NCBI RefSeq assembly: GCF_900079115.1
Contig: NZ_LT549890.1
Span: 1,290,001-1,322,000, forward strand
Direction: 5' to 3'
Length of the DNA: 32,000 nt
DNA from: Saccharolobus solfataricus
Lineage (GTDB): Archaea > Thermoproteota > Thermoprotei_A > Sulfolobales > Sulfolobaceae
Of this stretch, positions 2,999 through 23,943 are shown in pieces (within the stretch, counting starts at the first letter, position 1; every line of letters starts with the position of its first letter). The notes beneath the pieces are model-generated. The model saw only the letters and a list, made by a program, of their open reading frames with translations, did not search any database and was not told where the DNA came from. Made by a program: the position numbers and the translations under genes.

Positions 2999-3993
2999 AA
3001 ATAAGGGGAATCGCACAAGCCATTGCCGAGGGAATAAGACAAGAGATGGAGAGAAACGACAGAATTGTGGTACTGGGAGAAGACGTAACATATTGGGGGG
3101 CAGTCTTCGGATTTACTATGGGACTTTTTGATAAGTTTGGAAGAAAAAGGGTTATCGATACACCCATTACTGAACAAACATTTATGGGCATTAGCGTTGG
3201 CGCTGCTTCCTCTGGCTTACACCCAGTTGTTTCATTAATGTTCGTAGACTTTCTAGGTGCGGGATTCGATCAAATGTTCAACCATATGGCAAAGAATTAT
3301 TACATGAGTGGAGGTCAATATCCCATGCCAATTACTGTAATTACGGCAATAGGAGGAGGTTATGGTGATTCCTCACAGCACTCACAAGTTTTATATTCAC
3401 TCTTCGCCCACTTACCAGGATTTAAGGTGATAGTACCTTCAACACCATATGACGCTAAAGGTCTTACAATTAAGGCACTAAGAGACAACAACCCAGTCAT
3501 AATATTCGGACATAAACTATTAACTGGACTACCATTTTTACCATTTGAAGGGAATGAAGAAGAGGTCCCAGAAGAACCTTATGAGATCGAATTCGGCAAA
3601 GCAGCCATCAGAAAAGAAGGAACTGATCTAACCATAATTTCCGCCGGCTTAATGGTCCATAGAAGCTTGAAGGCTGCGGAAATGCTACAGAAAGAGGGAA
3701 TTTCAGCCGAAGTAATAGACGTAAGAACGTTCGTCCCGTTAGATGAAGAAACCATAATAAAGTCAGCTAGGAAAACCGGAAGAGTGCTAATTGTAGACGA
3801 AGACTATATGAGCTATGGTGTAACTGGAGAGATAGCATTCAGAATACAGTCTAAGGCATTAAAGGATCTTAAAGTCCCCATATCCAGGCTTGCAGTTCCA
3901 GACGTTCCAATACCCTTTTCAGAGCCTTTAGAAAATGCGGTAATACCCAACGTAAATACAATCTACAGTGAAGCGAAAAAGTTAATCCAATAA
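2995..3993 (+). CDS. 2-oxoacid dehydrogenase E1 component, beta subunit (transketolase-like pyrimidine-binding and C-terminal domains)
   Basis: 332 aa. Motifs are VVLGEDV...GGVF-like (VLGEDVTYWGAVFG), RVIDTPITEQTFMGISVGAA, and PSTPYDAKGL...NPVIIF. It is translationally coupled to the alpha subunit. Confidence 0.9.
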   Translation: MKIRGIAQAIAEGIRQEMERNDRIVVLGEDVTYWGAVFGFTMGLFDKFGRKRVIDTPITEQTFMGISVGAASSGLHPVVSLMFVDFLGAGFDQMFNHMAKNYYMSGGQYPMPITVITAIGGGYGDSSQHSQVLYSLFAHLPGFKVIVPSTPYDAKGLTIKALRDNNPVIIFGHKLLTGLPFLPFEGNEEEVPEEPYEIEFGKAAIRKEGTDLTIISAGLMVHRSLKAAEMLQKEGISAEVIDVRTFVPLDEETIIKSARKTGRVLIVDEDYMSYGVTGEIAFRIQSKALKDLKVPISRLAVPDVPIPFSEPLENAVIPNVNTIYSEAKKLIQ

Positions 3994-8221: not shown

Positions 8222-10063
8222 GTGAGCTATAGGACATTACTCTCAATAATTGTGATAATATTGGTAATGATTTCTTCCTTTTCCATATTATGTATAATAA
8301 TATCTAATGCAGAAATTACTATTAACAATAATATTACAGATTCAAATAATATTTATATGGCCCCTAATTTTTTTGGTGCCGATCCCGCTATGATCTTTCC
8401 CTATAATAGTACAATGTTGGGAATTATTCTAGCAGGCGGTGGTGGTCCAGAGCTTTCTGTAAGTCAAGTATATAATTTATCGTATCCTTATAATCAAGTC
8501 ATGTTTAATTATCCGGAAAATGGACCTTTAGAGTTAAATATGTCTTATGATAATTGGTCCATTCATGAAATATCATTCATAGCTCTACCAACTGTAGATG
8601 TTTATCCTACGAAAATATATAACTCTTCACTTTATCTTGGTAAGGGACTACTCTCCGCTACCTATAAAAATATCGCTATCATAATTATTTCTTATAAAGA
8701 TTTTTCCAAATATAATATAACTCTTAGTCAGTATCCTTCCCATATTCTTCAAGGAACGGATGGCATAGGTTTATTTATAATTCCGCTGCAAGCATTACCA
8801 TGGGTTTATGGGAAAAGTGTTAACTCATCCGTGATCCAACAGACCTATATTTTTCAAAACGAGACAAATTTAATAATTAACGGAAATGATTTTGGGTCTT
8901 TAACTCAATTGGGTCTTTATGATGAATTATCATCAACTGTTCAAACTTTAGAGTTTTTAAACACTACTTCACCTTATTCAAGTATATTAATTGATTCGAT
9001 AAATAACACTATAGAAGCTATGGCAAATCGATTTACCATTGATAACCAAACCATTGATAATTCAATTATTGACCTGGCCTATAGTTCGTCAACATTAACT
9101 CCCGGAGAACAAGAATTTTACGCTTACATAGTGAGTTTCGGTGGCAATATTACTACTAAAATAGAAAGTGAAATCTATTCAATTTTACCTAAATTAGTTA
9201 ATTTAATACAGTATCCCAGTATCTCAAATCAATCTCCAACCACAATAGTTTCGGTGTTTAATGTTCTGAATAGATCAGCTACTAAAGTACCTGGTGTTGT
9301 ATATGGATTACTTTACAATTCTACTGGATTAATTTCAAAATCTATAATGAATTCTAATGGTGAGTTAGTATTTAATGTTTCTCCAGGTACGTACGTACTT
9401 TACGTCTACCATTATCCAAACTTAGGACTTAATTATACAGAATATTGGGGTCAAATTAGAATAGATGTCAGATCTGGTATAAATAAATATAATTTTACTA
9501 GAGTTGAGCCGTGGATTTACAATATAATCGATACATCGATAGATTCTCAATTTAAGATATCTGTGAAAATTATTAATCCATTAAATCAAACAGTTAGCGG
9601 GCAGCTATATTTATGGATAAGTAACGGAATCGCATCCTCAGCTAGCGCTCCAACATTTGAAAGTCAGTTGCTCTTAAATCCTGGCGTAAATTCTATTAAT
9701 TATACTTATACAGCCTCAAGTAGTGGTTCTTACTATGTTTACGCAGTTTTGAAATCTTTTGTTTTAAATCCTGAAGGAGAGCCAATAACCACTGATCAAT
9801 ATAATTGGACTAGTATGGGAGGTATAAATATAAGTAATACGCCTACTCAAACTGTAACTACAACGTTTACGGTTACCCAAACCACTGTAAACCGGCAAAC
9901 TATCACCTCTACCGTTACCCAGACAAGCGAAGGTACCACCACAGTAGTAGTGGTTAATAAATCTTTAAGTGCTGGAGCAGAGCTATTAATTATCACTATA
10001 TCTATAATAATTATTGTAATTATGGGAATTATAATAATTCTGTTCCTAAGAAGATCTAAGTGA
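8222..10063 (+). CDS. large surface glycoprotein with Thr-rich stalk and C-terminal TM anchor
   Basis: 613 aa with a GTG start. It has an N-terminal TM (LLSIIVIILVMISSFSILCIII) and dozens of N-x-S/T sequons. Beta-sandwich-like stretches include GELVFNVSPGTYVLYVYHY and ISVKIINPLNQTVSGQLYLW. The Thr-rich linker is TPTQTVTTTFTVTQTTVNRQTITSTVTQTSEGTTT. The C-terminal TM is followed by RRSK. TATA atttatatataa lies at 8191-8202. Confidence 0.8.
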   Translation: MSYRTLLSIIVIILVMISSFSILCIIISNAEITINNNITDSNNIYMAPNFFGADPAMIFPYNSTMLGIILAGGGGPELSVSQVYNLSYPYNQVMFNYPENGPLELNMSYDNWSIHEISFIALPTVDVYPTKIYNSSLYLGKGLLSATYKNIAIIIISYKDFSKYNITLSQYPSHILQGTDGIGLFIIPLQALPWVYGKSVNSSVIQQTYIFQNETNLIINGNDFGSLTQLGLYDELSSTVQTLEFLNTTSPYSSILIDSINNTIEAMANRFTIDNQTIDNSIIDLAYSSSTLTPGEQEFYAYIVSFGGNITTKIESEIYSILPKLVNLIQYPSISNQSPTTIVSVFNVLNRSATKVPGVVYGLLYNSTGLISKSIMNSNGELVFNVSPGTYVLYVYHYPNLGLNYTEYWGQIRIDVRSGINKYNFTRVEPWIYNIIDTSIDSQFKISVKIINPLNQTVSGQLYLWISNGIASSASAPTFESQLLLNPGVNSINYTYTASSSGSYYVYAVLKSFVLNPEGEPITTDQYNWTSMGGINISNTPTQTVTTTFTVTQTTVNRQTITSTVTQTSEGTTTVVVVNKSLSAGAELLIITISIIIIVIMGIIIILFLRRSK

Positions 10064-10614: not shown

Positions 10615-11712
10615 ATGTTAGAAGTAGTATATATAGTAGGAGCATTTGGATCACCGTTGCTAACTCCGCCTACGTTGGCAGTAGCTGGTTTCCTTATCGC
10701 TGTGCTTATGGGTCTAGAATATGGTGTATTATGGGTTCTAACTGGAGAATCTTTAAATAGAGAACTAATATTAGTTATATCAAATATAGTTTACTCGATA
10801 GCGTGGTCTATTACTGCACTACCTTTTACTCCAATATATTATACACTTCAACCTTATTTTTCTCAACCTCTCCTCATTTACCTTTATCTAGCACTTTTCA
10901 TAGGTTCTATATTGCTTGGTGTAATCCCAGCTATAATGTATATAAGAAAATATTTACAATTTAATAAAATACAAAAGGAATTTAAACAGTTAGAACTAGA
11001 TTATAAATCCATAAATCAAGAATATAGTGAAATTAATACGAGACTTAATAAAGCTAAGGAGGAAATCAATAATGTCATGGATAAGATTAATAAAGCTAAG
11101 GAATTACATGAAACCGCACTTAGGGATCCAGACTTAATAGTTACGGCACTTGATAAAAAACCTGAGATACCAGAGGTTATAAGACCTAATGTAAATTACG
11201 TAGTAGCAGGCTTAGGAGGTACTGGAACAGCGCTATTGGAGGCACTCATAGATTATTTAGTTTCAAAAAACGTCATTAAGGAAGACGGGACTAATCCTTT
11301 CTTATTCGTGGCTTTTGATACGAACCAAGCAAGTATTGCGAGACTGAGGAAAAAGTATGAATATACACCAGTTGGAAAACTATTGTATACCTTTAATAAC
11401 TTTGAGGCACTCACTACAGCTAATATAATAAGCCATAATCCTTGGCTTGCTGGGTTAAACGTTGATGTAATTCAAGGCTCTGGAATGAAGAGAGCTATAG
11501 GTTATGCATCTTATAATACGGTGAAGGAAGCCATGATGGAGGATATCCTCAGAAGGTTAAGTGATTTAATTGCCAAAACGAGAACTAATCGTATATTTTT
11601 AATAGTATTTACCGCTTTAGGAGGAGGTACTGGTTCTGGCTCATTCATTCATTTTACGAAGGACTTTATAAGTAGGCTAGGTAGGATAACTGGAGATTCA
11701 GAACCTTACGTG
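10615..11712 (+). pseudogene. 5' part (366 codons) of the IS-disrupted gene for a TM + coiled-coil + tubulin/FtsZ-superfamily GTPase
   Basis: It has 3-4 N-terminal TM helices, then a coiled coil (FNKIQKEFKQLELDYKSINQEYSEINTRLNKAKEEINNVMDKINKAKE). FtsZ-like motifs follow: T1 VVAGLGGTGT (11209-11229), FVAFDTNQASI (compare FtsZ NTDAQAL), T3-like IQGSGMKRAIG, and the tubulin signature T4 ALGGGTGSG (GGGTGSG at 11620-11640). The reading frame runs into the IS at 11713. Confidence 0.8.
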
Positions 11713-12938
11713 AGAGTGTCCGGAATGTAATTATCTGAACGAATAGATAAACAGAATGATAAATATTAATATTGCCAGAAGGGTAGGACCTGGATCACCG
11801 AGAAAAACTTTATAATGGAAAAATATCAAGACGAGAGGATTTACCTATCGCGCATAGCGTTGCCTGATCGCGAGGAGGCGCGTCTCAGAGCTGAACGGCT
11901 CTACGTCCTGGAGGAGTCCTCCGTTGGATCGCGAGGAACATCTTGATGTTGTAGATCACTCCCAGGACGTGAAGGAAGACGTCGTTCCTCCAGGTCGTGG
12001 TCCCGTAGGGCCTCCAGAACGCGTTCAGGTAGGTGCCGAAGAACTCCACGTGGGCCCTCAGGGTAGTGAAGGGCTTCTCCCGCGCTATGAGCTGTGTCGG
12101 GGAGGGAGAGAATCCCCTGTCCGCGATCTTAATCCCCTTGAGCGGTGACTTGAACCTCTTGTCCGAGAAGTTGGCCGGCTTCACCGTGATGGACCTCACG
12201 AAGAGGGAGACGGAGATCACGGCTATGGCCTTGAGCCCGTAGTGCGAGACCCCTCTCTTCTTGGTCCACCTTCCCTCGAACCTCCTCTTGGTTCTCCCCA
12301 GGGAGAGCAGCTTCCTGGCCCTCTCCAGGTTACCTTCCCTCCTCTCCAGCTCCGCCTTCTCCCGAAAGGTCTCCACGCTCCTCTTCCCAGGAGGTAAGTC
12401 CAGTAGGAAGGAGTCCACTAGCCACGCCATGAAGTCCACGAGATGCGCGCTCGCAGGGAGGTAACTGGGTAGGCACTTCTCCTCAAGCTTGAAGGAAATC
12501 TCCAACAACTTCTTCCTCACCCCGTACAACCTGCCCACGAAGTCGTGCAGCGTGCTCTTCCCCACCTTCCTCCCCACGAACCAGGCCACGACCACGTTCA
12601 CGTTAACCATTTTCACCGCGTCCCTATAGGAGCAAGAGTAGAGCACCATGACGATTAACAACTTCAAGTAAACCAGCGCGCCCTCGCCCAGAACCCTCTC
12701 CAAATCCATGGCGTCCAGCACGGGCTTGATCTCCGTTAACCATTTTTCCCTCCACGGCATATCCTCTATTGGGGGAAGAGGGTAGTACATCAGGTTTGGT
12801 ATGTGTCTTAATGTTCTTGCCATGGTACTACCCTCTACTCCCATAACTTAAGTGTTACTCCAATTTAATCCAAGATAATGCTAAAAACCAATTTATTCTT
12901 GCCAATAAAAATTCAATTTTTACATTCCGGACACTCTC
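11713..12938 (-). mobile_element. 1226-bp GC-rich IS (copy 1), IS4/IS5-type DDE transposase, about 18-bp terminal inverted repeats
   Basis: Terminal inverted repeats are (g)agagtgtccggaatgta and tacattccggacactctc. It is flanked by direct ACGTG (11708-11712 and 12939-12943). It is nearly identical to 15218-16444 in the opposite orientation. The size is in the ISC1225 class; the name is not verified. Confidence 0.85.
11885..12844 (-). CDS. IS4/IS5-family (DDE_Tnp_1-like) transposase
   Basis: 319 aa. The motif GLKAIAVISV...ITVKPANFSDKRF...IKIADRGFSPS matches the second-Asp region of IS4/IS5 transposases (..an..D......aDrGY). GC content is far above the surrounding DNA. Confidence 0.8.
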   Translation of the reverse strand: MGVEGSTMARTLRHIPNLMYYPLPPIEDMPWREKWLTEIKPVLDAMDLERVLGEGALVYLKLLIVMVLYSCSYRDAVKMVNVNVVVAWFVGRKVGKSTLHDFVGRLYGVRKKLLEISFKLEEKCLPSYLPASAHLVDFMAWLVDSFLLDLPPGKRSVETFREKAELERREGNLERARKLLSLGRTKRRFEGRWTKKRGVSHYGLKAIAVISVSLFVRSITVKPANFSDKRFKSPLKGIKIADRGFSPSPTQLIAREKPFTTLRAHVEFFGTYLNAFWRPYGTTTWRNDVFLHVLGVIYNIKMFLAIQRRTPPGRRAVQL

Positions 12939-12943
12939 ACGTG

Positions 12944-14959
12944 ATGGGATTCGGCGTGCTACCTAGAGGAAATGAAGGTAAATTATTTCACGTTAATGCA
13001 TTTTCCGCTATAAAGGAAATGCAGTTTATACTTAAAAATGGCGTTAGATCAAAAGATGAGAAGGCAAGTAGCGGAGCAGAAAATACTATAAATCTCATTA
13101 ATCCCTTCTTAGCATTTTTCATTATAAGTAGAGATAGACCCGTTAGAGATATAGATACTAATATAGCGGTAGGTCTAGCGAGATTTATATCGGATATAGG
13201 TACTTCTGGCGTAGTTGAAGCAAATCAGCAAAGTAAATATGCTGAGACTTTCGATCTCGGAGATATTAAAACTAAAGCTGCAATGTCTCCGGATTCCTTC
13301 TTCACCTTCAACAGATATGACATTTATTTCCCTGCTTCAAGAATATCGTGGTATAAAAACGTAGGAGTTATTGTAGTTAATGACATTAATTCTAGATATG
13401 CTAAATTAAGGGAAGAGTTAAATGAAATTTCGAGACTCTTATCTGGATACAAGGATAATATCTCGAAGTTTTTAGCGAATTTAGATAACCTTAACAATAC
13501 CGTTAAATCCATGACTGTAAAGGTGTACAGAAGATGGAGCAATAGAATAGGCGAAACACATACTCAACTTCTAAAGTGGAGGGCGGAAGTAGTAGAAGGA
13601 GGGAGTATATCACCTAAGAACCTTGAGACTCCATTAAATAGCATGAATAGCTCTACTGAAGAAAACGTTGAGAGTATAGTAATCTTAAAGAGGAGAATAG
13701 ATGAGTTCAATGAGATTGTGAAGGAAGAGGAGTCATTTTTAAAGAGTCCTCCTGCAAGCCAGATAGAGTACGTCTTTCCAGTTAGAGAACTTGAGAATTT
13801 TAACGTATCCCAGTTATCCACGGACAAAGCATCACTTTATAGACTAATCGAGGAGTATAGGAGAAAAGACGAATTCTTAAGAGCTTTAGCAGACTTAAAA
13901 GCTCCACTAGGTTCAGTAGGGCAGACAATGGCTAATATCGATTACCAGAAAATTAACGTTCCTATACCCATAACTACCGAGGCTAAAGAATTCATTTCTA
14001 AGTACAATTCTGGCTTAATAAAGCAGAATGCAGTAGTATCCCCCGATATAGCTAGCGTATTGATGGTTACTGCATCAATGCAGGATAATATAAACGTTAA
14101 TGATTTTCCTAATCCAGAAACCCTTAAACAAGCGTTAGAGAGTAAGACTCGCAATCCAGACGCTAAAATGGGCTATATCAATTCAAAAAGATTTAGTATA
14201 TCCACATATCACATAATAAATGGTGTTTACATATGGAGAATATCTAAAAATACCCCTCCTATTCTAAGGGATTTAACGTACCTCATAGAGGATTATGAGG
14301 CTGTTAAGAACGAAAACTTTGGAGAGTTAATTTACCATCATACATTGTTTTATAATGATCCTCAGACCTTTGAAGCATTAACGGGAGAACAAATAGCCAA
14401 TTTATCCCCTAATCAAGCAGCTTGGAGGATAATAGAATTTTGGGCGAACTATAATCCAGAAATAGAATATATTAATATTTGGGGAATTATAGAATTAGCC
14501 GGCGTATATAGTGATCTTAAAATTATTAATAATAATATTGATAATTTAATGGAATTACTTGACGGAGCTATAAAGAGTTTACAAAGGGGAGTAACTAACG
14601 TAGATGTGGTTAAGGTAAAGAAATATTTAGATGCAATAACCTCGGCAAAAGTTCCATCTTCAGAAAACGTTAAGGCAATCTACGAGGCTAATAAAATAGC
14701 GAATAAAGACGAGGTGAATAGAGGTCTCAAAGAGATAGCCGATTTAAGCCTACAAATACTCTCAAAACTGGAAGACATAAAGGTGAGATACGGTCAAAAA
14801 TGGATAGATGATCTGAATAAGTTAAAGAAGGAATCCACAGATTACGGTATAAATAGGATTATACAAACCCTTATAAATCACACTGATACGTTAATTACTA
14901 AATCAGAGAGTTTAAGTGAAGATCTCAATAAATTCGTGGAATCCATAACCTTAGAGTGA
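12944..14959 (+). pseudogene. 3' part (671 codons) of the IS-disrupted tubulin/FtsZ-like GTPase gene
   Basis: Joining 11712 to 12944 restores ...GDSEPYV|MGFGVLPRGNEGKLFHVNAF. GVLPRGNEGK resembles the FtsZ T5 segment (PFxFEGxxR). LINPF is T6-like. VGLARFISDIGTSG...TFDLGDIK resembles H7 plus the T7 synergy loop (N-x-D-x-x-D type, here FDLGD). A long helical C-terminal region of about 500 aa follows. Confidence 0.8.
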
Positions 14960-14965: not shown

Positions 14966-15217
14966 TTGTCCTCCTCATTCGATCCTGAGAGATCCCTACT
15001 AGATTTTTTCAAATCCAATAACAGCGAGCAAACGTTCTATATTTTGAAGGGACTTTATGAAATATATAAAAGTAAAGGTTATACTGAGTTCCTTAAGGAT
15101 ATTACTGGTCTAATTAATTTAGTAGCGAAATATGAGACTATGCTATCCATAAGTTCTAACACTAAAGGTAATTTAAAGAAAATAAAGGATATGTTGGAGA
15201 GGTTAAATATAGACGTG
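14966..15217 (+). pseudogene. 5' part (84 codons) of the second IS-disrupted gene of the cluster
   Basis: A TTG start lies 6 nt after the upstream stop, giving an operon-like arrangement. The frame runs into IS copy 2 at 15218. Confidence 0.65.
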
Positions 15218-16444
15218 AGAGTGTCCGGAATGTAAAAAATTGAATTTTTATTGGCAAGAATAAATTGGTTTCTAGTATTATCTTGGATTAAATTGGAGTA
15301 ACACTTAAGTTATGGGAGTAGAGGGTAGTACCATGGCAAGAACATTAAGACACATACCAAACCTGATGTACTACCCTCTTCCCCCAATAGAGGATATGCC
15401 GTGGAGGGAAAAATGGTTAACGGAGATCAAGCCCGTGCTGGACGCCATGGATTTGGAGAGGGTCCTTGGCGAGGGCGCGCTGGTTTACCTGAAGTTGTTA
15501 ATCGTCATGGTGCTCTATTCCTGCTCCTATAGGGACGCGGTGAAAATGGTCAACGTGAACGTGGTCGTGGCCTGGTTCGTGGGGAGGAAGGTGGGGAAGA
15601 GCACGCTGCACGACTTCGTGGGCAGGTTGTACGGGGTGAGGAAGAAGTTGTTGGAGATTTCCTTCAAGCTTGAGGAGAAGTGCCTACCCAGTTACCTCCC
15701 TGCGAGCGCGCATCTCGTGGACTTCATGGCGTGGCTAGTGGACTCCTTCCTACTGGACTTACCTCCTGGGAAGAGGAGCGTGGAGACCTTTCGGGAGAAG
15801 GCGGAGCTGGAGAGGAGGGAAGGTAACTTGGAGAGGGCCAGGAAGCTGCTCTCCCTGGGGAGAACCAAGAGGAGGTTCGAGGGAAGGTGGACCAAGAAGA
15901 GAGGGGTCTCGCACTACGGGCTCAAGGCAGTGGCCGTGATCTCCGTCTCCCTCTTCGTGAGGTCCATCACGTTGAAGCCAGCCAACTTCTCGGACAAGAG
16001 GTTCAAGTCACCGCTCAAGGGGATTAAGATCGCGGACAGGGGATTCTCTCCCTCCCCGACACAGCTCATAGCGCGGGAGAAGCCCTTCACTACCCTGAGG
16101 GCCCACGTGGAGTTCTTCGGCACCTACCTGAACGCGTTCTGGAGGCCCTACGGGACTACGACTTGGAGGAACGACGTCTTCCTTCACGTCCTGGGAGTGA
16201 TCTACAACATCAAGATATTCCTCGCGATCCAACGGAGGACTCCTCCAGAACGTAGAGCCGTTCAGCTCTGAGACGCACCTCCTCGCGATCAGACAACGCT
16301 ATGCGCGATAGGTAAATCCTCTCGTCTTGATATTTTTCCATTATAAAGTTTTTCTCGGTGATCCAGGTCCTATCCTTCTGGCAATATTAATATTTATCAT
16401 TCTGTTTATCTATTCGTTCAGATAATTACATTCCGGACACTCTC
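15218..16444 (+). mobile_element. 1227-bp GC-rich IS (copy 2), inverted relative to copy 1
   Basis: It has the same terminal inverted repeats as copy 1. Flanking repeats are ACGTG (15213-15217) and tCGTG (16445-16449). It differs from copy 1 by one A in a homopolymer next to the terminal repeat and by a handful of substitutions, which give 4 amino-acid differences in the transposase. Confidence 0.85.
15312..16271 (+). CDS. IS4/IS5-family (DDE_Tnp_1-like) transposase
   Basis: 319 aa, with 4 substitutions relative to 11885-12844. Confidence 0.8.
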   Translation: MGVEGSTMARTLRHIPNLMYYPLPPIEDMPWREKWLTEIKPVLDAMDLERVLGEGALVYLKLLIVMVLYSCSYRDAVKMVNVNVVVAWFVGRKVGKSTLHDFVGRLYGVRKKLLEISFKLEEKCLPSYLPASAHLVDFMAWLVDSFLLDLPPGKRSVETFREKAELERREGNLERARKLLSLGRTKRRFEGRWTKKRGVSHYGLKAVAVISVSLFVRSITLKPANFSDKRFKSPLKGIKIADRGFSPSPTQLIAREKPFTTLRAHVEFFGTYLNAFWRPYGTTTWRNDVFLHVLGVIYNIKIFLAIQRRTPPERRAVQL

Positions 16445-16449
16445 TCGTG

Positions 16450-18693
16450 AAAGAACTGGAGAGATTATCAAAAAGTATTGCCTCTGACCTCATTAATAAC
16501 ATAAACGATGTTTGTATTTCAATTCAAGGTTACTATAATGATAAGAAACTACCCATGGTTTTCAAATATAGCTGCCATGAAATGTTACCAGATCCTTATA
16601 ATGCTGACCATAACTACCCCGCTAGGTTAAAGTATTTCTTGACAACAGTTCTTAGAATGAGGAATTCTTACGAATCAACAGTTAGATTCTCTACAGATTT
16701 AATAGATTACTATTCTAAAAAATTGGGATATGATATATCAAATATAAAGGACTTTTCCGAGAAATTAAGATTCGTAACTAACTCCCTTCTGGATCCTTCT
16801 TTCATATCAACCCTTCAAGGAATTACTAAAGTTCTGATGGATTCAACCGAGTATTTATGTGTAATATCTTATTACTTAACACCTCAAAAAATTAGAGGCA
16901 AGAAACCCTCAACAATTATAGAATACGAGCCATTAATAGATAATATTATTAAATACTCATCATACTTCCTAAGATTTATTTTCGAAAAAACTGACAGATT
17001 TCTAAATTTTATTCCATCAGCTGGCCTAAACTTAACTGAATTAAGGAATATAGCCAATCAAATGCTCGAAATACTCTCTAAAATTAACCTAAATGTTTTA
17101 GAATCTTATCTTACAAATCAAGGAGAGTTGAAACTATCTCAAATTTATACTGGAGACCTACTATTCTTTACCTTCTTTAATTTAGCTGATGCATTAAATA
17201 TTTATGATGATTACATATATAAAATCAGAAACGCAGTACTTTCCGTACCTTTAGAAAATAGGATCGCAATAACTAGAAGTATTCTCGGATTAAAAGATGT
17301 TGAGGATATTAATATGAGCTGTAGAGATGTACATAATTTTATTCTAAATATGAATGAAATCTCAAATGAAATTTATTCTGGTGGAAATATTGCAGAATTA
17401 ATAGATAGTCTGCGAAAGTACGTTTTCATAAGGGATTCTATAAATTATGCTTTTAAAGATGTAGCACTATTAATGCAGAACGTACTATACTCTAAAGAAA
17501 TCACGTATTTAAGTATGTCCCTTCACGTAGAAAACTACATACATAATACCTCAGCCATAGAATTACTTGATAGAATTAGAATAGATTATAATGATTATAA
17601 CCGATTAATTAATAATTTACATGAGTTTAGGGACTGGATTAACGTACTCAAAAAGCTCGATTTAGATCAAAAGTTGTCTGAATCTCTAGTCAAGGTAGTG
17701 AGCGGGGATCCTCCAACTAATAGTAAAATGAGTTTGGATGAAGTAATAGGAAAGATAATTAAGAGAGAACAAGCTAACGTTGAGGAAGTTAAAGGAACTG
17801 GAATATACGAATTTAGAACAGACAATAGGGTAATAAGAGCCATGCCCGTTATATACGATATGTGGAAGGAAATAGGAGATGACGGGATAGAATATTCCCA
17901 TTTAGTAAATTGGTTAAGTAAGAGATTAGATATTGATGATGATAGAAAAGTTAATGAGATAGCAATAAAATACTTAAATGCGTCATATTATGCAGGGTTA
18001 ATAAAACTTGAAGAAAAACCGACAACTAAGCCTCCAGATACTGAACAAACTCGTAAAAGAGAAATCACGATTAACGCAATAGGTATCCCTACTGGAGCAA
18101 GATGGAAATTCATACTCGCACGGGAAAATAAATATCTTAATTTCGATACAAACGAAAGTTCGATAAGGATTAAAGCGCAAGAAAAAGATAATCTAACTTT
18201 CTATGATGTTACGATAGGCAATGTTATATATGTACCCTATCCTAGGACGTATACCATTAGATCTAGTGATTTATCAAAAGGCGTGTTAGACGTAAAATAT
18301 AATGTATCTTCCCCTCAATCAAGTCAAAGGACTGGAAAAACTAATGTGCAAACTAATGTAAAGATTTCCAAACCCAAGGGAACTGCAACCGCAGGTGTTA
18401 TATTATCAATAGTATATATTATCGAACTAATAGTAATTGCAAGTGGATTCCAATACTCTAACATTCTATTTGAAGCATTAACAGTAATGGACATATTCTT
18501 TCAGTTAGCAATAATGGGATTACTAGTATCCGCTGTAACTAACCCCTATAACTCCCATAAAAAAGGTTCATATATTATCATAATATCGATAATAATGTTC
18601 TTCTTTTCAATCCCCATAATAGAATATGTGATATTCTTCATTATATTTGATATTGCAGTTGGAATTTCATTAGCAAGATTTAAACGTAGGTGA
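16450..18693 (+). pseudogene. 3' part (747 codons) of the second IS-disrupted gene: large helical protein with a beta-rich module and 3-4 C-terminal TM helices
   Basis: Joining 15217 to 16450 is in frame (...ERLNIDV|KELERLSKSIA...), giving 831 aa. C-terminal TM segments are AGVILSIVYIIELIVIASGF, LTVMDIFFQLAIMGLLVSAV and IIIISIIMFFFSIPIIEYVIFFIIFDIAVGISLA. I recognised no catalytic motif. Confidence 0.7.
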
Positions 18694-19481
18694 TAGGTAT
18701 GGAAAAGAAAAACTCAATAAATATATCATTATTAGAAAATTTAGCAAATTTTTTCTCCATAGGGGAAATAGAAAAGGGAGAACTAAGAGCAAATTCAGAA
18801 ATAATTAATTATCTTTTAGAACAAGGTCTAATAAGACAAATAGAGAGAAATTTTATAGTAGATGAACTGCTCAAATTTATTATATTAAAATATAGTAATA
18901 TAGTAAAATTAAAAATGTCTAAAGACTATTTAGTGAAGACTCAATCAATATATATACTCTTAATGATAGTAGACGAGAATTATCATAAAATACCTTTTTA
19001 CGACTATATTGCGTATAGCGGACTGGTTAAGATAAAAAAGAAGAGAATTGCAAGGAGTGTAATAAGAAATGGTAAAAAGATCATCAATAATAATCAAGGC
19101 GAAATACATTTAATGAAATATCAAAAAAATAAAATAAAGGCTGAGATTAACCTAGATCAAACGAAGTCTGGAGAGATAATTGAATTCGGCTTATATATAT
19201 GGAATAGGCCATCTAAGCTAAGTTTAATGGGAGATAAGACCTTTAGCCAAAACTATTTCTGGATATACGCTCCTACCTTAGAATACTCCACCAAAATACT
19301 TCTCGAAAATAATCTAAATGTAGAATCGATAAACCTAGAAAGGTTCTTATATCTAGATGACAACCATCAAATTAAGGCACCAATTAAAAATCAATATATG
19401 CTCAGAAAAGAAAAAAATTATATTGAGATAAAAGTGCATTATCCTGATTATGGTATATATAAACTATCGTACAATTTATAA
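18690..19481 (+). CDS. hypothetical protein, cluster-flanking paralog B
   Basis: 263 aa. Either a GTG start overlaps the upstream stop, or the start is the ATG at 18699. It shares C-terminal motifs with 6106-6924 (see that feature). Confidence 0.7.
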   Translation: MIGMEKKNSINISLLENLANFFSIGEIEKGELRANSEIINYLLEQGLIRQIERNFIVDELLKFIILKYSNIVKLKMSKDYLVKTQSIYILLMIVDENYHKIPFYDYIAYSGLVKIKKKRIARSVIRNGKKIINNNQGEIHLMKYQKNKIKAEINLDQTKSGEIIEFGLYIWNRPSKLSLMGDKTFSQNYFWIYAPTLEYSTKILLENNLNVESINLERFLYLDDNHQIKAPIKNQYMLRKEKNYIEIKVHYPDYGIYKLSYNL

Positions 19482-19845: not shown

Positions 19846-20232
19846 GGGGTGTTCTAATGCATCCATCTTATTCGATAATAAATAATAAAATTATATCAGA
19901 TTAGAAATTTTCACAATTAGTCGTTCCGAATCCAGATGCAGCCAAAGGAATTAGAACGTGAAAACAGCCTCTGAAAAAGGTTTATGTGCAAGGATTACGA
20001 AATCTTTTTGTAGTAGTACTTGAATGGATCTCGCGAACTCTTGCACATAAGTTTTTCTAAAATAATGTCTTTGTTCAAATTTCTATATCTTAAACGTTAA
20101 ACGAGCGTTTTTCATATTACTCCAATATTTTTACAAATGTTTTTTGAATTTCATGACTGTTTGAGAACACTCCCAACTTGATATAATTTTACAAATAATT
20201 TTAGAATTTCATGATTGCATGAGAACACTCCC
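19846..20232. mobile_element. 387-bp non-autonomous derivative of the IS1-like element, with a duplicated right end
   Basis: The left inverted repeat ggggtgttctaatgcat and the next 110 nt align with the reverse complement of 5975-6086. The right end aatttcatgaYtgNNtgagaacactccc is present twice (ending at 20174 and 20232). An internal 11-bp stem pairs ttatgtgcaag (19982-19992) with cttgcacataa (20040-20050). Confidence 0.6.
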
Positions 20233-20577
20233 AATTCAAAGAAATCCAATTTTATTTATATCATCAGATACATATAATTAAATTTTAGACTATATTAAAA
20301 ACAGAGTAAATTTTCTTATATTTGAAGAAACAATATGATAATCCTAGCTGAATTTATATTTGTAAGACGATTTTGGATCTACTGAGAAGGGGCGAGGCTT
20401 GTCTTTTCTGTGTCAAAAGAGTTTGAAACTGAAGTAGAAAGTCGTATCTTAAGTACTCGAGTTAAGTTTAAAGTCATGCTATACACTTTTTAATACTGTG
20501 ATTTATACTTTACAATTCCAACTGAAAATCTCGAATGACGTAATTGTCCCCCTTTCACATCTAAACTCAGTAGGACC

Positions 20578-21279
20578 TTGTTCCTCTCCTTCTCCCCAAC
20601 TTACTCAAAGATCACTGAAAGCAAGGAACCACACAAACCCTTAAGAATAACCGTAATAAAAGATCACGGCAAACCCTTATATTCCACGGGTAAAAATAAA
20701 ATAGTGCTAAAGACTGAAAACACATACACATTTACCGTAAATACCCTATTAGAGGATGTGGTAAAGGAAGTGGTAAAGACCGAGAGTGTCAATAAGGAAA
20801 TTTACAATACGAAATTTCACGTTGAGCTGGAAAACATTATAGTCAAAGAGGAGTTTAAGATTAATGATGCCAGATTCTACAAAATTCACTTTAAGACCCC
20901 AACACTCCTACAACCCCCGAGACCTAGTATCAAAAGAAAAGGCAATAGATACGTCTTGTTCCCTTACGTTCCACTCCTCTTTTACTCCATAGCCTCCCAT
21001 TGGAATAGATACATGAATAACAAGATAGTTGGAGTAACTGGTAGCAAAACCCTATATTATTTTAGAGAAGTAAATTACAAGATAAGGCCTCTAACCGCAT
21101 ATTATGGGAACATACCTAATAAGGGATTTGTGGGATGGGTTTTATTTGAGTTAAAAGCTAGGAAGGGAAGCAATTTAAGGGAAAACATCAGAAGGCTCTT
21201 AGATTACGCAAATTACTTCGGTATAGGAAAAAGCAGAAATATAGGTTTTGGAGAAGTAGATGTAAGACCTTTGGAATAA
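20578..21279 (+). CDS. cas6: Cas6 CRISPR repeat endoribonuclease
   Basis: 233 aa. The C-terminal glycine-rich loop [14 protein letters not shown] is the Cas6 signature G-x-G-x-x-x-x-x-G-F-G. The body is beta-rich with a double ferredoxin-like pattern. Only a TTG start is available, because the frame is closed at 20536-20538 and has no ATG. No clear TATA is visible, so the N-terminus or expression may be compromised by upstream IS debris. Confidence 0.8.
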
Positions 21280-21967: not shown

Positions 21968-22501
21968 ATGGAGTCGCAGTTACCTAAATTCTTAAAGGAA
22001 CCGGAGAAGTACTCTAGGTTGAGATTACTTGAGGCTCTGCAAGAGCTCTATTTAAGCATTGAAATGCTCAAAGAAGGCTATAGCAGGAACTCCGCAAGTA
22101 AATTATTCCTCTCATGGAAGGCGCTTTTAAGTTCAATCGTTGTTACAAATTTTGGCAAAATAATGGAAACGAAGAAGAAAGAAGGGAAGGAAGACGAGAT
22201 AAAGTGGTACATGAGAATAGGATATTCTGCACCTACTACTGGTCTAATAGGGATTGCAAGAGACCTTGAGAATCTCGGATTTAAAGGGTTAGTTAATCTA
22301 ACAACCGCAATGCTGGGGATTCACAGATACGCATATAACGGTTTAGATGAGGATATAAGTCCTTTTCACAGTAGGAGTGAAGCAATAATATCAATAAAGG
22401 GGTTAATAAAAGCTGAAGTTGAAATAGTAGGCTCAATGAAATTTGGGGATGAAGAGAAAGAGCTCTTTGAGAAAATAAAGAGGGAATTGAACAACATCTG
22501 A
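21968..22501 (+). CDS. hypothetical all-helical protein (possibly PaREP1/HEPN-like)
   Basis: 177 aa. The helical pattern is LLEALQELYLSIEMLKEGYSRNSASKLFLSWKALLS ... LGIHRYAYNG. My recollection of archaeal PaREP1-family proteins is similar, but I cannot verify it. Confidence 0.5.
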   Translation: MESQLPKFLKEPEKYSRLRLLEALQELYLSIEMLKEGYSRNSASKLFLSWKALLSSIVVTNFGKIMETKKKEGKEDEIKWYMRIGYSAPTTGLIGIARDLENLGFKGLVNLTTAMLGIHRYAYNGLDEDISPFHSRSEAIISIKGLIKAEVEIVGSMKFGDEEKELFEKIKRELNNI

Positions 22502-22866: not shown

Positions 22867-23943
22867 TACTTCGTCAGACTTTAAAGAGCAAGATTTATAT
22901 TTCATGAGTAATACTAAATTGTTATGCCGAAATCCAGAATGCACGGTATAAGGCTCGACAAGAAACAAGAGGAAGAGAGGAGGATTAACGCTGTAAAAGA
23001 TGTGAGGAACGGGATGAGTATAAAGGACGTTGCCAAGAAGTATGACGTCTCCATCTTTACCGTGTACAAGTGGTTGAGGAAAGGTGACCTGAGCGCTAAG
23101 CCGAGGAAGGGACCCACGAAACTGAAGGACGAGGAAAAGCTCGTCCGAATCTTAGAAAAGAGCCCAAGAGATTTCGGCTTGAACTACGATTTCTGGACCT
23201 TGAAGCTCATAGCGTATATACTTGACAAGGAATTTGGGATAAAGTACAACCCGAGGAGTTTAAGCCCAGTCCTCAAGAAGTTAGGCTTCAAGTACAAGAA
23301 AGGAAAGAGAACTTACGTTAGAGACGATAACGCTGTAGAAAGGTGGGTGAAGGAACAAGGGGAGAAGCTTTTAAAAAAATAAGAGAAGGGTACAAGGTAC
23401 ACATCTTCGATGAGTCGTACGTGTCCTACATAAACAAGGGTAAAGGCTGGATGAAGGTCGGAGGAGGGATAAAGGTCAACCCTAAGAGGAAGAGGTTTGC
23501 AGTAGTAGGCGGGATAACGATTAGTAAAGAGGGAATAACTTTCTCCTATTCGACATACAAGAAGCCCTCGCTGAACTCAAAAGATATTATACTCTACTTG
23601 AGGAAGGTAATAAAGGACGAGAAGACCGTGATAGTGATGGATAATGCTAGAATACACGGTAATGAAGTGAGGGAATTCCTTGAGGAAAATGGGGTGGAGT
23701 TTGTTTATCTGCCGCCTTACTCTCCGGATAAGAGTCCGGCGGAGGGGCCGTGGGCAGTCCTCAAGAAAAGGCTCTACTCGAAGATTTACACGGACTTCGA
23801 GACCTTAATGTGGGATGCAACGAGGTTCCTACGCTCCATATCCAAGAGAGTAAATGACCTTACGTATAGTGTGAAGAGGTGCGGTGAACCTTGGACGTCA
23901 ATACTGAGTGAAGTTTTCTTGCCCTTTAAAGTCTGACGAAGTA
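22867..23943 (+). mobile_element. IS630/Tc1-family IS, 1077 bp; ISC1078 size class
   Basis: Perfect 20-bp terminal inverted repeats: tacttcgtcagactttaaag at 22867-22886 and its reverse complement at 23924-23943. TA target duplications lie at 22865-22866 and 23944-23945. Confidence 0.9.
22924..23936 (+). CDS. IS630-family transposase, two overlapping frames joined by a probable -1 frameshift on T TTA AAA AAA
   Basis: ORFA (22924-23382) carries HTH/winged-helix motifs (MSIKDVAKKYDVSIFTVYKWLRKG; WTLKLIAYIL). ORFB (in the -1 frame, ending 23936) carries DDE_3 motifs IFDESYV, VIVMDNARIH and LPPYSPDKSPAEGPW. An A7 run at 23373-23379 lies in the overlap. Confidence 0.85.

What the first reader, a model, noticed from the sequence alone, without database searches (positions are those of the whole stretch)
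10615..14959. Membrane-anchored tubulin/FtsZ-superfamily GTPase gene in a Sulfolobales-type genome
Removing the IS at 11713-12938 plus one copy of its target duplication (through 12943) restores one ORF of about 1037 aa. It has 3-4 N-terminal TM helices and a roughly 50-residue coiled coil. After these comes a domain carrying, in order, what read as all the FtsZ/tubulin nucleotide-binding loops:
- T1: VVAGLGGTGT.
- An NTDAQ-like FDTNQAS.
- T3-like GSGMKRAIG.
- The canonical tubulin signature GGGTGSG (11620-11640).
- T5-like GVLPRGNEGK.
- T6-like LINPF.
- An H7/T7-like VGLARFISDIGTSG...FDLGDIK, which would carry the synergy-loop acidic residues needed for polymerisation-activated GTP hydrolysis.
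A helical extension of about 500 aa follows. Sulfolobales are textbook FtsZ-less archaea that divide with the Cdv/ESCRT-III system. A tubulin-fold GTPase fused to a membrane anchor is therefore unexpected and, to my knowledge, has not been characterised experimentally. It may belong to the computationally proposed FtsZ-like families (FtsZL1 / Pfam Tubulin_2) that were suggested to act in membrane remodelling, but I cannot verify membership.
Basis: partly seen in the sequence, partly recalled or inferred. Interest (0 to 1): 0.9.

Follow-up and report, generated by a model that had tools for sequence, protein, structure and literature searches.

The report
IS-split membrane-anchored FtsZ-like GTPase gene
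This is a real tubulin/FtsZ-fold GTPase gene with its own membrane anchor in Saccharolobus solfataricus, knocked out by a jumping gene. This exact gene (SSO1376) was already described by computation in 2010, so it is a confirmed but known oddity that nobody has tested experimentally.

Summary
**Observation: confirmed.** Removing the IS (11713-12938) and one copy of its target duplication joins 10615-11712 to 12944-14959. The result is a stop-free 1037-aa ORF, 92% identical without gaps to intact 1037-aa orthologs from Saccharolobus shibatae and Saccharolobus MAGs.

**Interpretation: largely right.**
- The protein passes Pfam Tubulin_2 (FtsZl1): 55.5 bits against a cut-off of 27.
- It matches a CetZ profile (hhalign probability 98.6%).
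- Its AlphaFold model hits only FtsZ, tubulin, CetZ and TubZ in the PDB.
- T1-T5 are placed correctly. The T7-like DLxD motif is invariant but unproven.

**Novelty claim: fails.** The window is S. solfataricus P1/P2, and the fragments are SSO1376 and SSO1378. Makarova & Koonin (2010) described exactly this gene, including its FtsZl1 membership, transposon disruption and N-terminal TM helices.

**What I add:**
- The C-terminal half is not decayed (dN/dS 0.14).
- The gene heads a tight operon with an approximately 830-aa membrane-anchored partner, itself split by a second copy of the same IS, and a 263-aa protein (SSO1380).
- None of the vWA, P-loop GTPase or OmpA partners of classic FtsZl1 operons is present.
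- About eight TM-anchored clusters exist in thermoacidophilic archaea.

It is dispensable, patchily distributed and sits among defence, toxin-antitoxin (TA) and IS genes. Its function is untested.

The parts
10615..11712 (+). 5' part of the FtsZl1-type gene (= SSO1376, residues 1-366): TM helices, stalk, and the GTPase domain through T4/H4
   Evidence: The ORF translation is an exact match to AAK41610.1 / WP_010923363.1. The Pfam Tubulin_2 match starts at residue 197.
10651..10953 (+). N-terminal membrane anchor, 3-4 TM helices (residues 13-113)
   Evidence: Hydropathy segments are 13-45, 51-71 and 82-113. AF2 helices are 18-43, 49-67 and 85 onward. All full-length orthologs have N-terminal TM segments.
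10954..11124 (+). Helical (coiled-coil-like) stalk of about 57 residues between the membrane and the GTPase domain (residues 114-170)
   Evidence: AF2 gives a single helix 85-170 with pLDDT 80-93. Weak coiled-coil-type Pfam hits fall at 115-167.
11200..11229 (+). T1 loop, VVAGLGGTGT
   Evidence: Aligned to the CetZ IGxGQAGGK motif by hhalign. G199, G201, G202 and G204 are invariant.
11620..11640 (+). T4 tubulin signature, GGGTGSG
   Evidence: Invariant in all family members. Aligned to the CetZ/tubulin T4 loop.
11713..12938 (-). IS5-family insertion sequence (ISC1234-like, about 1.23 kb) interrupting the gene. The transposase ORF is at 11885-12844 on the minus strand.
   Evidence: 23-bp perfect terminal inverted repeats and a second copy 98% identical. 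Weak DUF772 / IS5 transposase hits. Absent from the intact ortholog L014. ISC1234 is a known IS5-family element of S. solfataricus; the name assignment rests on length and family only.
12939..12943 (.). Right copy of the target-site duplication, (A)CGTG. The left copy is at 11708-11712.
   Evidence: There is a single copy in the empty site of L014.
12944..14959 (+). 3' part of the gene (= SSO1378, residues 367-1037 plus stop): S5/T5 through the end of the GTPase domain, a long coiled coil, and the C-terminal domain
   Evidence: In frame with the 5' part. 100% identical to P0002 / SAI85046.1, and SSO1378 (AAK41612.1) is in the same cluster. Gapless against P0026.
12953..12982 (+). T5-like loop, GVLPRGNEGK
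   Evidence: Aligned to CetZ GLGILPGSDEG in the PDB profile search and in hhalign. P373 and E377 are invariant.
13106..13138 (+). Strand S6 plus the T6-equivalent loop, FLAFFIISRDR.
   Evidence: AF2 strand at 423-427. hhalign co-linear with CetZ LLLDNDAW. S428 is invariant and R429 nearly invariant.
13250..13270 (+). T7/H8-like motif, FDLGDIK (D470 and D473 invariant)
   Evidence: Invariant in the 12 TM-anchored members. A D/E-x-x-D/N pattern recurs in the soluble relatives. Co-linear with CetZ VVDASEVINT. Not significant on its own, and low pLDDT.
13334..13516 (+). Long helix / coiled coil directly after the GTPase domain (residues 497-557)
   Evidence: AF2 helix 497-557 with pLDDT above 90.
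14966..15217 (+). 5' part of the operon partner gene g2 (84 codons)
   Evidence: 7 bp after the FtsZl1 stop codon. Joins in frame to 16450-18693 to give 831 aa. 79% identical to the 900-aa neighbour in L004 and homologous to the 840-aa neighbour in L014.
15218..16444 (+). Second copy of the same IS, inverted relative to the first, splitting g2. The transposase ORF is at 15312-16271 on the plus strand.
   Evidence: Inverted repeat I1, 1214 nt at 98%. The empty site in L014 has a single CGTG.
16450..18693 (+). 3' part of g2: a mainly helical protein with three C-terminal TM helices
   Evidence: No Pfam, NCBIfam, PADLOC or PHROG family.
18690..19481 (+). g3 (= SSO1380), 263 aa, overlapping the g2 stop codon by 4 bp
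   Evidence: Exact match to AAK41614.1. Conserved after g2 in L001 and L014-L017.
8222..10063 (+). Upstream 613-aa predicted surface protein (N-terminal signal/TM segment, Thr-rich stalk, C-terminal TM). It accompanies the cassette in Saccharolobus.
   Evidence: TM segments at 1-34 and 580-612. A 607-aa gene occupies the same position in L014-L017; homology to it is inferred from position and length, not tested directly.

Best explanation
**What it is**
The feature is the transposon-inactivated gene SSO1376 + SSO1378 of Saccharolobus solfataricus. It encodes a membrane-anchored member of the FtsZl1 (Pfam Tubulin_2) branch of the tubulin/FtsZ superfamily.

**Anatomy of the intact protein (shown)**
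- Residues 1-113: 3-4 TM helices.
- Residues 114-170: a helical stalk. The Lys/Arg-rich segment after the last TM helix suggests the rest of the protein is cytoplasmic (my reading of the sequence).
- Residues about 190-500: a tubulin-fold GTPase domain with intact T1-T5 loops.
- Residues 497-557: a long coiled coil.
- Residues about 560-1037: a conserved, mostly helical C-terminal domain.

**Genomic setting (shown)**
- It is the first gene of a tight operon with an approximately 830-aa membrane-anchored helical partner (g2) and a 263-aa protein (SSO1380). In Saccharolobus a surface-anchored 607-613-aa protein lies just upstream.
- In this genome two copies of one IS5-family element have split both the GTPase gene and g2, so the system is dead here.

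**How it probably works (inferred)**
- The protein binds GTP.
- It probably self-associates head to tail through a retained T7-like DLxD loop and/or through its coiled coil.
- With g2 it would form a GTP-regulated assembly on the inner face of the membrane. This would serve an accessory, non-essential process such as membrane or envelope remodelling or vesicle formation. It does not serve cell division.
For: **Repair and identity**
-. 92% identical and gapless against intact P0026.
- Exact matches to AAK41610.1 (SSO1376), and to SSO1378 and SSO1380 cluster members.

**Family**
- Tubulin_2: 55.5 bits against a cut-off of 27, covering profile positions 2-343 of 356.
- PDB profile search: best hits are CetZ 4b46 and 4b45.
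- hhalign against CetZ: probability 98.2-98.6%.
- AF2 GTPase core pLDDT is 80-92. All of the top 50 Foldseek PDB hits are FtsZ, tubulin, CetZ or TubZ, with TM-score 0.5-0.59 normalised to the target.
- About 25 soluble proteins of 840-985 aa match profile positions about 200-1035; seven were scanned and all seven are Tubulin_2. The whole post-anchor architecture is therefore the canonical FtsZl1 one.
- Makarova & Koonin 2010 name SSO1376 as FtsZl1.

**Operon**
- A 7-bp gap and a 4-bp overlap between the genes.
- g2 is conserved next to the gene in L001, L004, L005, L008 and L014-L017. g3 is conserved in L001 and L014-L017.

**Recent inactivation after long constraint**
- dN/dS is 0.14 overall, and 0.10 and 0.18 for the two halves.
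- The target duplications are intact.

**Not cell division**
- The gene is inactive in viable strains P1/P2.
- It has a patchy distribution: 43 clusters at E <= 1e-30 among 1.8 billion representatives.
- In a Thermoplasmata MAG it coexists with a canonical FtsZ 2.2 kb away.
Against: - No biochemical or genetic data exist for any FtsZl1 protein in the searched library.
- The T7 region is not confidently modelled: pLDDT is below 50 in two models. It is also not significant in profile comparison on its own.
- No FtsZ_C or Tubulin_C domain is detectable, so polymerisation is unproven.
- The vWA, P-loop GTPase and OmpA partners on which the original 'membrane remodelling' inference rested are absent here.
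- The neighbourhood of toxin-antitoxin pairs, CRISPR accessory genes, a STAND NTPase and IS elements fits a conflict-system reading equally well.
Confidence: 0.8

Rival explanations
1. The cassette (surface protein, TM-FtsZl1, g2, g3) is an accessory conflict or defence module, or other island cargo, rather than a housekeeping membrane-remodelling machine. The GTPase would act as a membrane-bound NTP-dependent switch or effector triggered by infection or stress.
For: - The flanks differ between otherwise identical Saccharolobus loci. They carry VapBC, HEPN-MNT, AAA_14, and Cas6/CsaX.
- In the window the operon lies between IS elements and Cas6, PaREP1, an nSTAND3-like 1031-aa NTPase, and Csx1.
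- The distribution across Sulfolobaceae, Acidilobus and Thermoplasmata is patchy and looks like horizontal gene transfer.
- In L009 an AbiEii-like AAA_21 gene is nearby.
- Two genes of the one operon were knocked out by IS in the laboratory strains.
Against: - No PADLOC family matches any of the four proteins.
- There are no homologs on plasmids, phages or IMG/VR viral contigs.
- No recognisable effector domain (nuclease, protease, pore, TIR and the like) was found.
- Variable regions of Sulfolobales genomes hold many non-defence genes, and only a handful of loci were examined.
Confidence: 0.25
2. The protein is a tubulin-fold GTPase that does not polymerise. It would work as a dimeric, stalk-mediated (dynamin- or switch-like) membrane GTPase, and the 'T7' motif would have another role.
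For: - Makarova & Koonin could not align the S6-T7 region or any C-terminal domain with FtsZ, and they raised the possibility of no filaments.
- There is no FtsZ_C or Tubulin_C hit.
- A 60-residue helix follows directly after S7, where FtsZ has its C-terminal beta-sheet domain.
- The T7 segment has low pLDDT.
Against: - D470 and D473 are invariant with FtsZ-like D-x-x-D-[IV]-[RK]-T spacing (the FtsZ motif is recalled from my own knowledge).
- The motif sits a short but variable distance after H7. In P0005 and L010 it follows H7 directly.
- It is co-linear with the CetZ T7 loop.
- The region is part of the conserved Tubulin_2 profile up to position 343 of 356.
Confidence: 0.25
3. It is a cell-division FtsZ substitute or helper in Sulfolobales.
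For: It is the only tubulin-superfamily protein reported in Sulfolobales.
Against: - It is disrupted in viable S. solfataricus P1/P2.
- It is rare among Sulfolobales and absent from most representatives scanned.
- It falls below the Pfam Tubulin threshold and lacks FtsZ_C.
- It coexists with a true FtsZ in Thermoplasmata.
- Sulfolobales divide with Cdv/ESCRT-III (established knowledge; also stated).
Confidence: 0.03
4. The two fragments SSO1376 and SSO1378 are expressed separately and still function as a split protein.
For: Both fragments remain open reading frames. The downstream ORF has an in-frame ATG inside the IS end, at 12878.
Against: - The break lies inside the GTPase core, between H4 and S5, and separates T1-T4 from T5-T7.
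- The IS fuses VRVSGM* onto the first half.
- The partner gene g2 is also split.
Confidence: 0.03
5. The glycine-rich motifs belong to an unrelated P-loop or Rossmann family.
For: None found.
Against: Pfam, the PDB sequence profile search, hhalign and Foldseek all return only tubulin/FtsZ-superfamily proteins.
Confidence: 0.01

Closest known systems
FtsZl1 family (Makarova & Koonin 2010, Biol Direct 5:33) = Pfam Tubulin_2, PF13809
   Same: - Passes the Pfam threshold.
- Has the same order of FtsZ-like GTPase domain, extended coiled coil and alpha-helical C-terminal domain.
- Profile matches to soluble Tubulin_2 proteins run over positions about 200-1035.
- SSO1376 is explicitly listed in that paper.
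   Different: - Carries an extra N-terminal 3-4 TM anchor plus stalk.
- The operon has no vWA, P-loop GTPase, protein kinase or OmpA partner. Instead it has two orphan proteins (g2, g3) and a surface-anchored protein.
- Contrary to the 2010 remark, the part after the transposon is intact and fully alignable.
CetZ (archaeal tubulin-like cell-shape proteins; PDB 4b46, 4b45, 3zid)
   Same: CetZ is the best sequence-profile match among solved structures. T1, T3, T4 and T5 align (GFGVLPRxxEG against GLGILPGSDEG). S6, H7, T7 and S7 are co-linear.
   Different: - No CetZ C-terminal domain (PF21011) was detected, and identity is only about 20-25%.
- CetZ is soluble and about 360-390 aa, without a TM anchor, coiled coil or 500-aa extension.
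FtsZ (e.g. S. aureus FtsZ 6kvq/3voa; M. jannaschii 1w5a)
   Same: FtsZ gives the top structural matches: Foldseek E about 3e-6, probability 1.0, TM-score 0.5-0.59 normalised to FtsZ. The D-x-x-D-[IV]-[RK]-T motif resembles the FtsZ T7/H8 motif (the FtsZ motif is from my own knowledge).
   Different: - 15-17% identity, and below the Pfam Tubulin gathering score (30.9 against 33).
- No FtsZ_C domain.
- FtsZ is tethered to the membrane through partner proteins (FtsA, ZipA, SepF) rather than through its own TM helices (established knowledge; SepF in PMC8178401, listed).
- This gene is not needed for division.
ISC1234-type IS5-family insertion sequences of S. solfataricus
   Same: About 1.23 kb, a single IS5-like/DUF772 transposase of about 319 aa, terminal inverted repeats, a short target duplication, and multiple near-identical copies.
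   Different: The name was not verified against ISfinder. The Pfam and NCBIfam transposase hits are below their curated cut-offs.

Membership tests
Tubulin/FtsZ superfamily (fold level) | Rossmann-like GTPase domain with the T1 G-rich loop and the T4 signature GGGTG(S/T)G in the canonical order | tested here: met
   The motifs are at residues 196-205 and 336-342, and they are invariant in the family. hhalign against CetZ gives probability 98.6%, E = 6.5e-16. The PDB profile search hits CetZ and tubulins.
Tubulin/FtsZ superfamily (fold level) | Three-dimensional fold matches solved FtsZ/tubulin structures and no other family | tested here: met
   The AF2 GTPase core has pLDDT 80-92. All of the top 50 Foldseek PDB hits are FtsZ, tubulin, CetZ or TubZ, with probability 1.00.
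Tubulin/FtsZ superfamily (fold level) | T7 'synergy' loop with acidic residues after helix H7 that completes the active site of the neighbouring subunit | tested here: inconclusive
   An invariant D470-x-x-D473 motif is co-linear with the CetZ T7 loop. The segment alone is not significant (probability 0.6%), and its pLDDT is below 50 in two models.
Tubulin/FtsZ superfamily (fold level) | C-terminal (GTPase-activating) beta-sheet domain: FtsZ_C, Tubulin_C or the CetZ C-terminal domain | tested here: not met
   No Pfam hit to FtsZ_C, Tubulin_C or PF21011. A 60-residue helix follows S7. hhalign of residues 630-830 against CetZ gives probability 0.6%. The later beta-containing region, 634-810, is modelled too poorly to exclude a displaced domain.
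Tubulin/FtsZ superfamily (fold level) | GTP binding and hydrolysis, and GTP-dependent polymerisation | not testable with these tools
   This needs biochemistry on an intact ortholog.
FtsZl1 / Pfam Tubulin_2 (PF13809) | Scores above the curated Pfam gathering threshold over most of the model | tested here: met
   55.5 bits against a cut-off of 27. Residues 197-501 match profile positions 2-343 of 356. All intact orthologs carry PF13809.
FtsZl1 / Pfam Tubulin_2 (PF13809) | [quoted passage not shown] | tested here: met
   AF2 helices at 497-557, 562-633 and 811-1034. Soluble Tubulin_2 proteins of 840-985 aa match profile positions about 200-1035.
FtsZl1 / Pfam Tubulin_2 (PF13809) | Typical operon partners: a vWA-domain protein, a diverged P-loop GTPase, a protein kinase, or an OmpA-family protein | tested here: not met
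   No such domain was found in the neighbours in the window or in L001, L003-L006, L008-L011 and L014-L017. This is a typical context feature of most members, not a strict requirement.
FtsZl1 / Pfam Tubulin_2 (PF13809) | Named as a member by the authors of the family | tested here: met
   The paper names SSO1376. The window's N-terminal fragment is an exact match to AAK41610.1, whose cluster also holds SSO1378. Equating AAK41610.1 with SSO1376 rests on locus-tag order and my own knowledge.
Canonical cell-division FtsZ | Pfam Tubulin (PF00091) above threshold, plus an FtsZ_C domain | tested here: not met
   PF00091 scores 30.9 bits against a cut-off of 33, and there is no FtsZ_C. For contrast, the real FtsZ in L010 scores 158.9 and 86.2 bits.
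IS5-family insertion sequence | Terminal inverted repeats, a short target-site duplication and a single DDE transposase, with the element absent from the orthologous empty site | tested here: met
   23-bp terminal inverted repeats and two copies 98% identical. (A)CGTG is duplicated, with a single copy in L014. The transposase family hits are weak and below their cut-offs.

The most novel reading that the evidence does not exclude
The four-gene cassette (surface-anchored protein, self-anchored FtsZl1 GTPase, membrane-anchored partner g2, and g3) is a distinct tubulin-superfamily membrane machine of thermoacidophilic archaea and has not been studied as a system. The GTPase would be inserted directly in the membrane and would polymerise through a retained T7-like DLxD loop to deform or organise the membrane. 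Possible roles are vesicle budding, S-layer or envelope insertion, or an infection-triggered response. It would operate in organisms that otherwise use only ESCRT-III for membrane scission.
Probability: 0.25. Interest if true: 0.75.

Novelty: already known. Interest (0 to 1): 0.3.

Why it matters
Sulfolobales are the model for FtsZ-independent, ESCRT-III-based division. A tubulin-fold GTPase with its own transmembrane anchor in this lineage is therefore a real curiosity. No FtsZl1 protein appears to have been studied experimentally.

The gene itself is not a discovery, because it was published in 2010. The practical value of this re-examination is that the question is now directly testable:
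- Intact, purifying-selected orthologs exist in cultured Saccharolobus/Sulfolobus strains (S. shibatae, Sulfolobus sp. A20).
- The operon partners are defined.
- A specific pair of residues (D470/D473) can be mutated to test whether this family polymerises like FtsZ.

Tried and rejected
1. **Non-tubulin P-loop or Rossmann origin of the glycine motifs.** Rejected by Pfam, the PDB profile search, hhalign and Foldseek.
2. **Alternative IS boundaries (11708-12942, no target duplication).** Rejected. That join is out of frame (my own reading of the sequence; no tool call tested it), and the empty site in L014 keeps one (A)CGTG.
3. **A known defence system.** PADLOC gave only noise for the GTPase and nothing for the partners.
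4. **A plasmid or virus origin.** No tblastn hit in PLSDB or INPHARED, no relative in IMG/VR, and no meaningful PHROG.
5. **g2 as a diverged paralog of the FtsZl1 C-terminal region or of CetZ.** hhalign probability is 0.4% or less.
6. **A displaced FtsZ-type C-terminal domain in residues 630-830.** hhalign probability is 0.6%, and AF2 pLDDT is below 50 in both models. This is unresolved rather than disproved.
7. **The T7 segment or the C-terminal 540 aa against PDB sequences.** Only spurious kelch or designed-repeat hits appeared, or none.
9. **Word-indexed homolog searches.** They found few relatives (6, 18 and 10 hits). The exhaustive representative search was needed to see the family.

Full report
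**1.

The region contains two co-linear ORFs, 10615-11730 (371 aa) and 12878-14959 (693 aa). They are separated by a GC-rich 1.23-kb element that carries a 319-aa ORF on the minus strand.

The element has perfect 23-bp terminal inverted repeats (11708-11730 / 12920-12942). A second copy, 98% identical and inverted, lies at about 15218-16444. Its ORF gives weak IS5/DUF772 transposase hits. ISC1234 is a known IS5-family element of S. solfataricus. The length and family fit that element, but I did not verify the name.

Joining 10615-11712 to 12944-14959 yields 1037 codons without a stop. Two results show the repair is exact:
- In an intact ortholog (L014) the empty site reads CCTTACGTG|CTGGGATTC, with one (A)CGTG. 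The window has that sequence on both sides of the IS.
- The repaired protein aligns with the intact 1037-aa protein P0026 at 955/1037 identities and zero gaps.

**2. Identity of the window and of the gene**

Exact-sequence look-up shows the N-terminal fragment is AAK41610.1 / WP_010923363.1, named 'tubulin-like domain-containing protein' of Saccharolobus solfataricus. The C-terminal fragment is SAI85046.1, and SSO1378 (AAK41612.1) is in the same cluster. The downstream 263-aa gene is SSO1380.

Makarova & Koonin (Biol Direct 2010, PMC2875224) describe exactly this gene, which they name SSO1376. Their points were:
- It was the first FtsZ/tubulin homolog seen in Crenarchaeota.
- It is disrupted by a transposon just after the GTP-binding loop.
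- It is distinguished by N-terminal transmembrane helices.
- It is probably the founder of a crenarchaeal subfamily of their new FtsZl1 family.

That is the only paper in the held library that mentions SSO1376. Later surveys treat Tubulin_2/'FtsZ-like' proteins only as an outgroup. The statement that it is experimentally uncharacterised stands as far as the library shows.

**3. Fold and family**

The repaired protein passes Pfam Tubulin_2 (PF13809): E = 7.4e-15, 55.5 bits against a cut-off of 27, residues 197-501 matching profile positions 2-343 of 356. It falls just below the Tubulin (PF00091) threshold, 30.9 against 33.

Other lines of evidence agree:
- A family profile finds CetZ structures (4b46, 4b45, 3zid) and then tubulins as the only PDB sequence matches.
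- Profile-profile comparison with a CetZ alignment gives probability 98.2% with 6 sequences, and 98.6% (E = 6.5e-16) with 39 sequences.
- The AlphaFold2 model (mean pLDDT 69.9) has pLDDT 80-92 in the GTPase core. It shows the expected alternation S1-H1-S2-H2-...-S4-T4-H4-S5-T5-H5-S6-H7.
- All of the top 50 Foldseek hits in the PDB are FtsZ, tubulin, CetZ or TubZ: best E = 2.8e-6, probability 1.00, TM-score 0.5-0.59 normalised to the target.

**4. Motif-by-motif check**

|---|---|---|
| T1 | VVAGLGGTGT | Aligns with the corresponding CetZ element |
| NTDAQ-like | FDTNQAS | Aligns |
| T3 | GSGMKRAIG | Aligns |
| T4 | GGGTGSG | Aligns |
| T5 | GVLPRGNEGK | Aligns with CetZ GLGILPGSDEG |
| T6 | LINPF | Misplaced |
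| H7/T7 | VGLARFISDIGTSG...FDLGDIK | Plausible but unproven |

- **T6.** LINPF precedes strand S6, which is FFIIS at residues 423-427. The T6-equivalent loop is SRDRP; S428 is invariant and R429 nearly so. It lines up with the CetZ 'DNDAW' segment.
- **H7/T7, for.** D470 and D473 are invariant in all 12 TM-anchored members. A D/E-x-x-D/N pattern recurs in soluble relatives. In P0005 and L010 the motif follows H7 directly (GSGGFDPNDVRTIM). The deeper hhalign run places it opposite the CetZ T7 segment VVDASEVINT, and places the following SFFTFNRY opposite CetZ strand S7.
- **H7/T7, against.** The segment alone is not significant (probability 0.6%). Both AlphaFold models leave it below pLDDT 50.
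- **C-terminal domain.** No FtsZ_C/Tubulin_C-type domain is detectable. A 60-residue helix with pLDDT above 90 follows immediately. This agrees with the 2010 statement that FtsZl1 cannot be aligned with FtsZ beyond H5.

**5. What is new relative to 2010**

(a) *The predicted subfamily exists.* Intact proteins of 1009-1057 aa occur in:
- Saccharolobus shibatae and Saccharolobus MAGs (27 contigs);
- Sulfolobus sp. A20, B5 and C3;
- an Acidilobus MAG and two Thermoplasmata MAGs;
- several metagenomes.

Truncated or partial forms occur in S. caldissimus and a Metallosphaera MAG. An exhaustive search of 1.84 billion representatives gives 644 proteins at E <= 1e-3 and 43 at E <= 1e-30. About eight clusters are TM-anchored.

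(b) *The architecture is canonical FtsZl1 plus an anchor.* About 25 soluble proteins of 840-985 aa match profile positions about 200-1035; seven were scanned and all seven are Tubulin_2. The GTPase, coiled coil and C-terminal domain are therefore the canonical FtsZl1 architecture, and the TM anchor plus stalk is the lineage-specific addition.

[quoted passage not shown] With intact orthologs this does not hold:
- There are no gaps or stops.
- dN/dS against L014 is 0.14 overall, 0.10 before the IS and 0.18 after it.
- The insertion is therefore recent, on a gene that had been under purifying selection.

(d) *The gene heads a tight operon.*
- g2 starts 7 bp after the stop codon and g3 overlaps g2 by 4 bp.
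- g2 is itself split by the second IS copy at a CGTG target. Joining 14966-15217 to 16450-18693 gives 831 aa in frame, with three C-terminal TM helices.
- g2 homologs follow the GTPase gene in L001, L004, L005, L008 and L014-L017. g3 follows in L001 and L014-L017. More distant loci have a large co-directional downstream gene without detectable similarity.
- In Saccharolobus a 607-613-aa protein with a signal/TM segment, a Thr-rich stalk and a C-terminal TM helix lies upstream.

(e) *The classic partners are missing.* None of the partners is a vWA protein, P-loop GTPase, kinase or OmpA protein, the components on which the 2010 'membrane remodelling system' was built. None matches any Pfam, NCBIfam, PADLOC or PHROG family.

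**6. Context and function**

The neighbourhood is a variable region:
- The flanks of the Saccharolobus cassette differ between genomes. They carry VapBC, HEPN-MNT, an AAA_14 ATPase and Cas6/CsaX.
- In the window the cassette lies among a TnpB-type element, IS630 and IS110 transposases, Cas6, PaREP1, an nSTAND3-like NTPase and Csx1.
- No relative is found on plasmids, phages or viral contigs.

The gene is dispensable, since it is inactive in strains P1/P2. It is patchily distributed, and in a Thermoplasmata MAG it lies 2.2 kb from a bona fide ftsZ. A role in cell division is therefore very unlikely.

The best-supported mechanism is a cytoplasm-facing, membrane-inserted GTPase that self-associates and works with a second membrane-anchored protein. 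The self-association could run through the T7-like loop, the coiled coils, or both. Whether the output is membrane or envelope remodelling (the 2010 proposal) or a conflict-related response cannot be decided from sequence. I give the latter about 0.25.

**7. Verdict**

It is slightly wrong on T6, and unproven on T7 and polymerisation.
- It is wrong on novelty, because this exact gene is in the literature and is annotated as tubulin-like in RefSeq.
- Interest is moderate to low as a discovery. It is a good, now well-defined target for the first experimental study of an FtsZl1 protein.

Noticed in passing
window 14966-18693 (IS copy at about 15218-16444): A second, inverted copy of the same IS (about 21 substitutions in 1226 bp) splits the next gene of the same operon (g2, 831 aa when repaired). 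It sits at a similar GACGTG target. Two independent hits in adjacent genes of one operon suggest target preference, relaxed selection after the first hit, or selection against the cassette in this lineage.
   Followed up: yes
window 20578-21279, 26352-29447, 29893-31026 (minus strand): A Cas6 gene, a 1031-aa protein with a weak nSTAND3 NTPase N-terminus, and a Csx1 (CARF-HEPN) gene lie downstream of the operon, with a PaREP1 gene at 21968-22501. No CRISPR array was seen in the window. There is only a 58-bp repeat of 1.9 copies at 20125-20234.
   Followed up: partly
window 337-1512, 22924-23936, 24247-24993 (minus strand): There are three further mobile-element genes: a TnpB/Cas12f-like OrfB_IS605 protein, an IS630-type transposase split into HTH and DDE_3 ORFs (probably a programmed or real frameshift), and an IS110-family transposase. 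At least five IS-related elements lie in 32 kb.
   Followed up: no
window 1961-3993 compared with L014 20563-22548: The 2-oxoacid dehydrogenase E1 alpha/beta genes lie upstream of the cassette in the window. In the intact Saccharolobus loci similar genes (same Pfam domains) lie downstream of it. If they are orthologous, this points to a rearrangement, probably IS-mediated, in S. solfataricus.
   Followed up: no
L010 15229-16362: In a Thermoplasmata MAG a canonical FtsZ gene (Tubulin 158.9 bits, FtsZ_C 86.2 bits) lies about 2.2 kb downstream of the TM-anchored FtsZl1 gene. The two tubulin-superfamily proteins therefore coexist and may be linked.
   Followed up: partly
L008 (NZ_JBAMME010000155.1): A 9.2-kb contig binned as 'Thermogutta sp.' (a planctomycete) carries a TM-FtsZl1 gene 38% identical to the Saccharolobus one, plus a g2 homolog. 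This is either horizontal transfer to a thermophilic bacterium or a mis-binned archaeal contig.
   Followed up: no
proteins P0032, P0029, P0056, P0086, P0091, P0098, P0101: Several database entries are partial forms of the family. The S. caldissimus protein (883 aa) starts after the TM anchor. Several proteins of 160-216 aa match only the TM-plus-stalk region. They could be contig-end fragments, further pseudogenes, or cases where the anchor and the GTPase are separate genes.
   Followed up: no
L003 6017-7723; L002 6762-7253; L001 7379-9679: In distant loci, non-homologous predicted surface proteins lie next to the cassette: Ig-like bMG3/Big_1 or PKD domains (L003, L002) and a 766-aa protein with a C-terminal TM anchor but no domain scan (L001). 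They echo the 607-613-aa surface protein upstream in Saccharolobus.
   Followed up: partly
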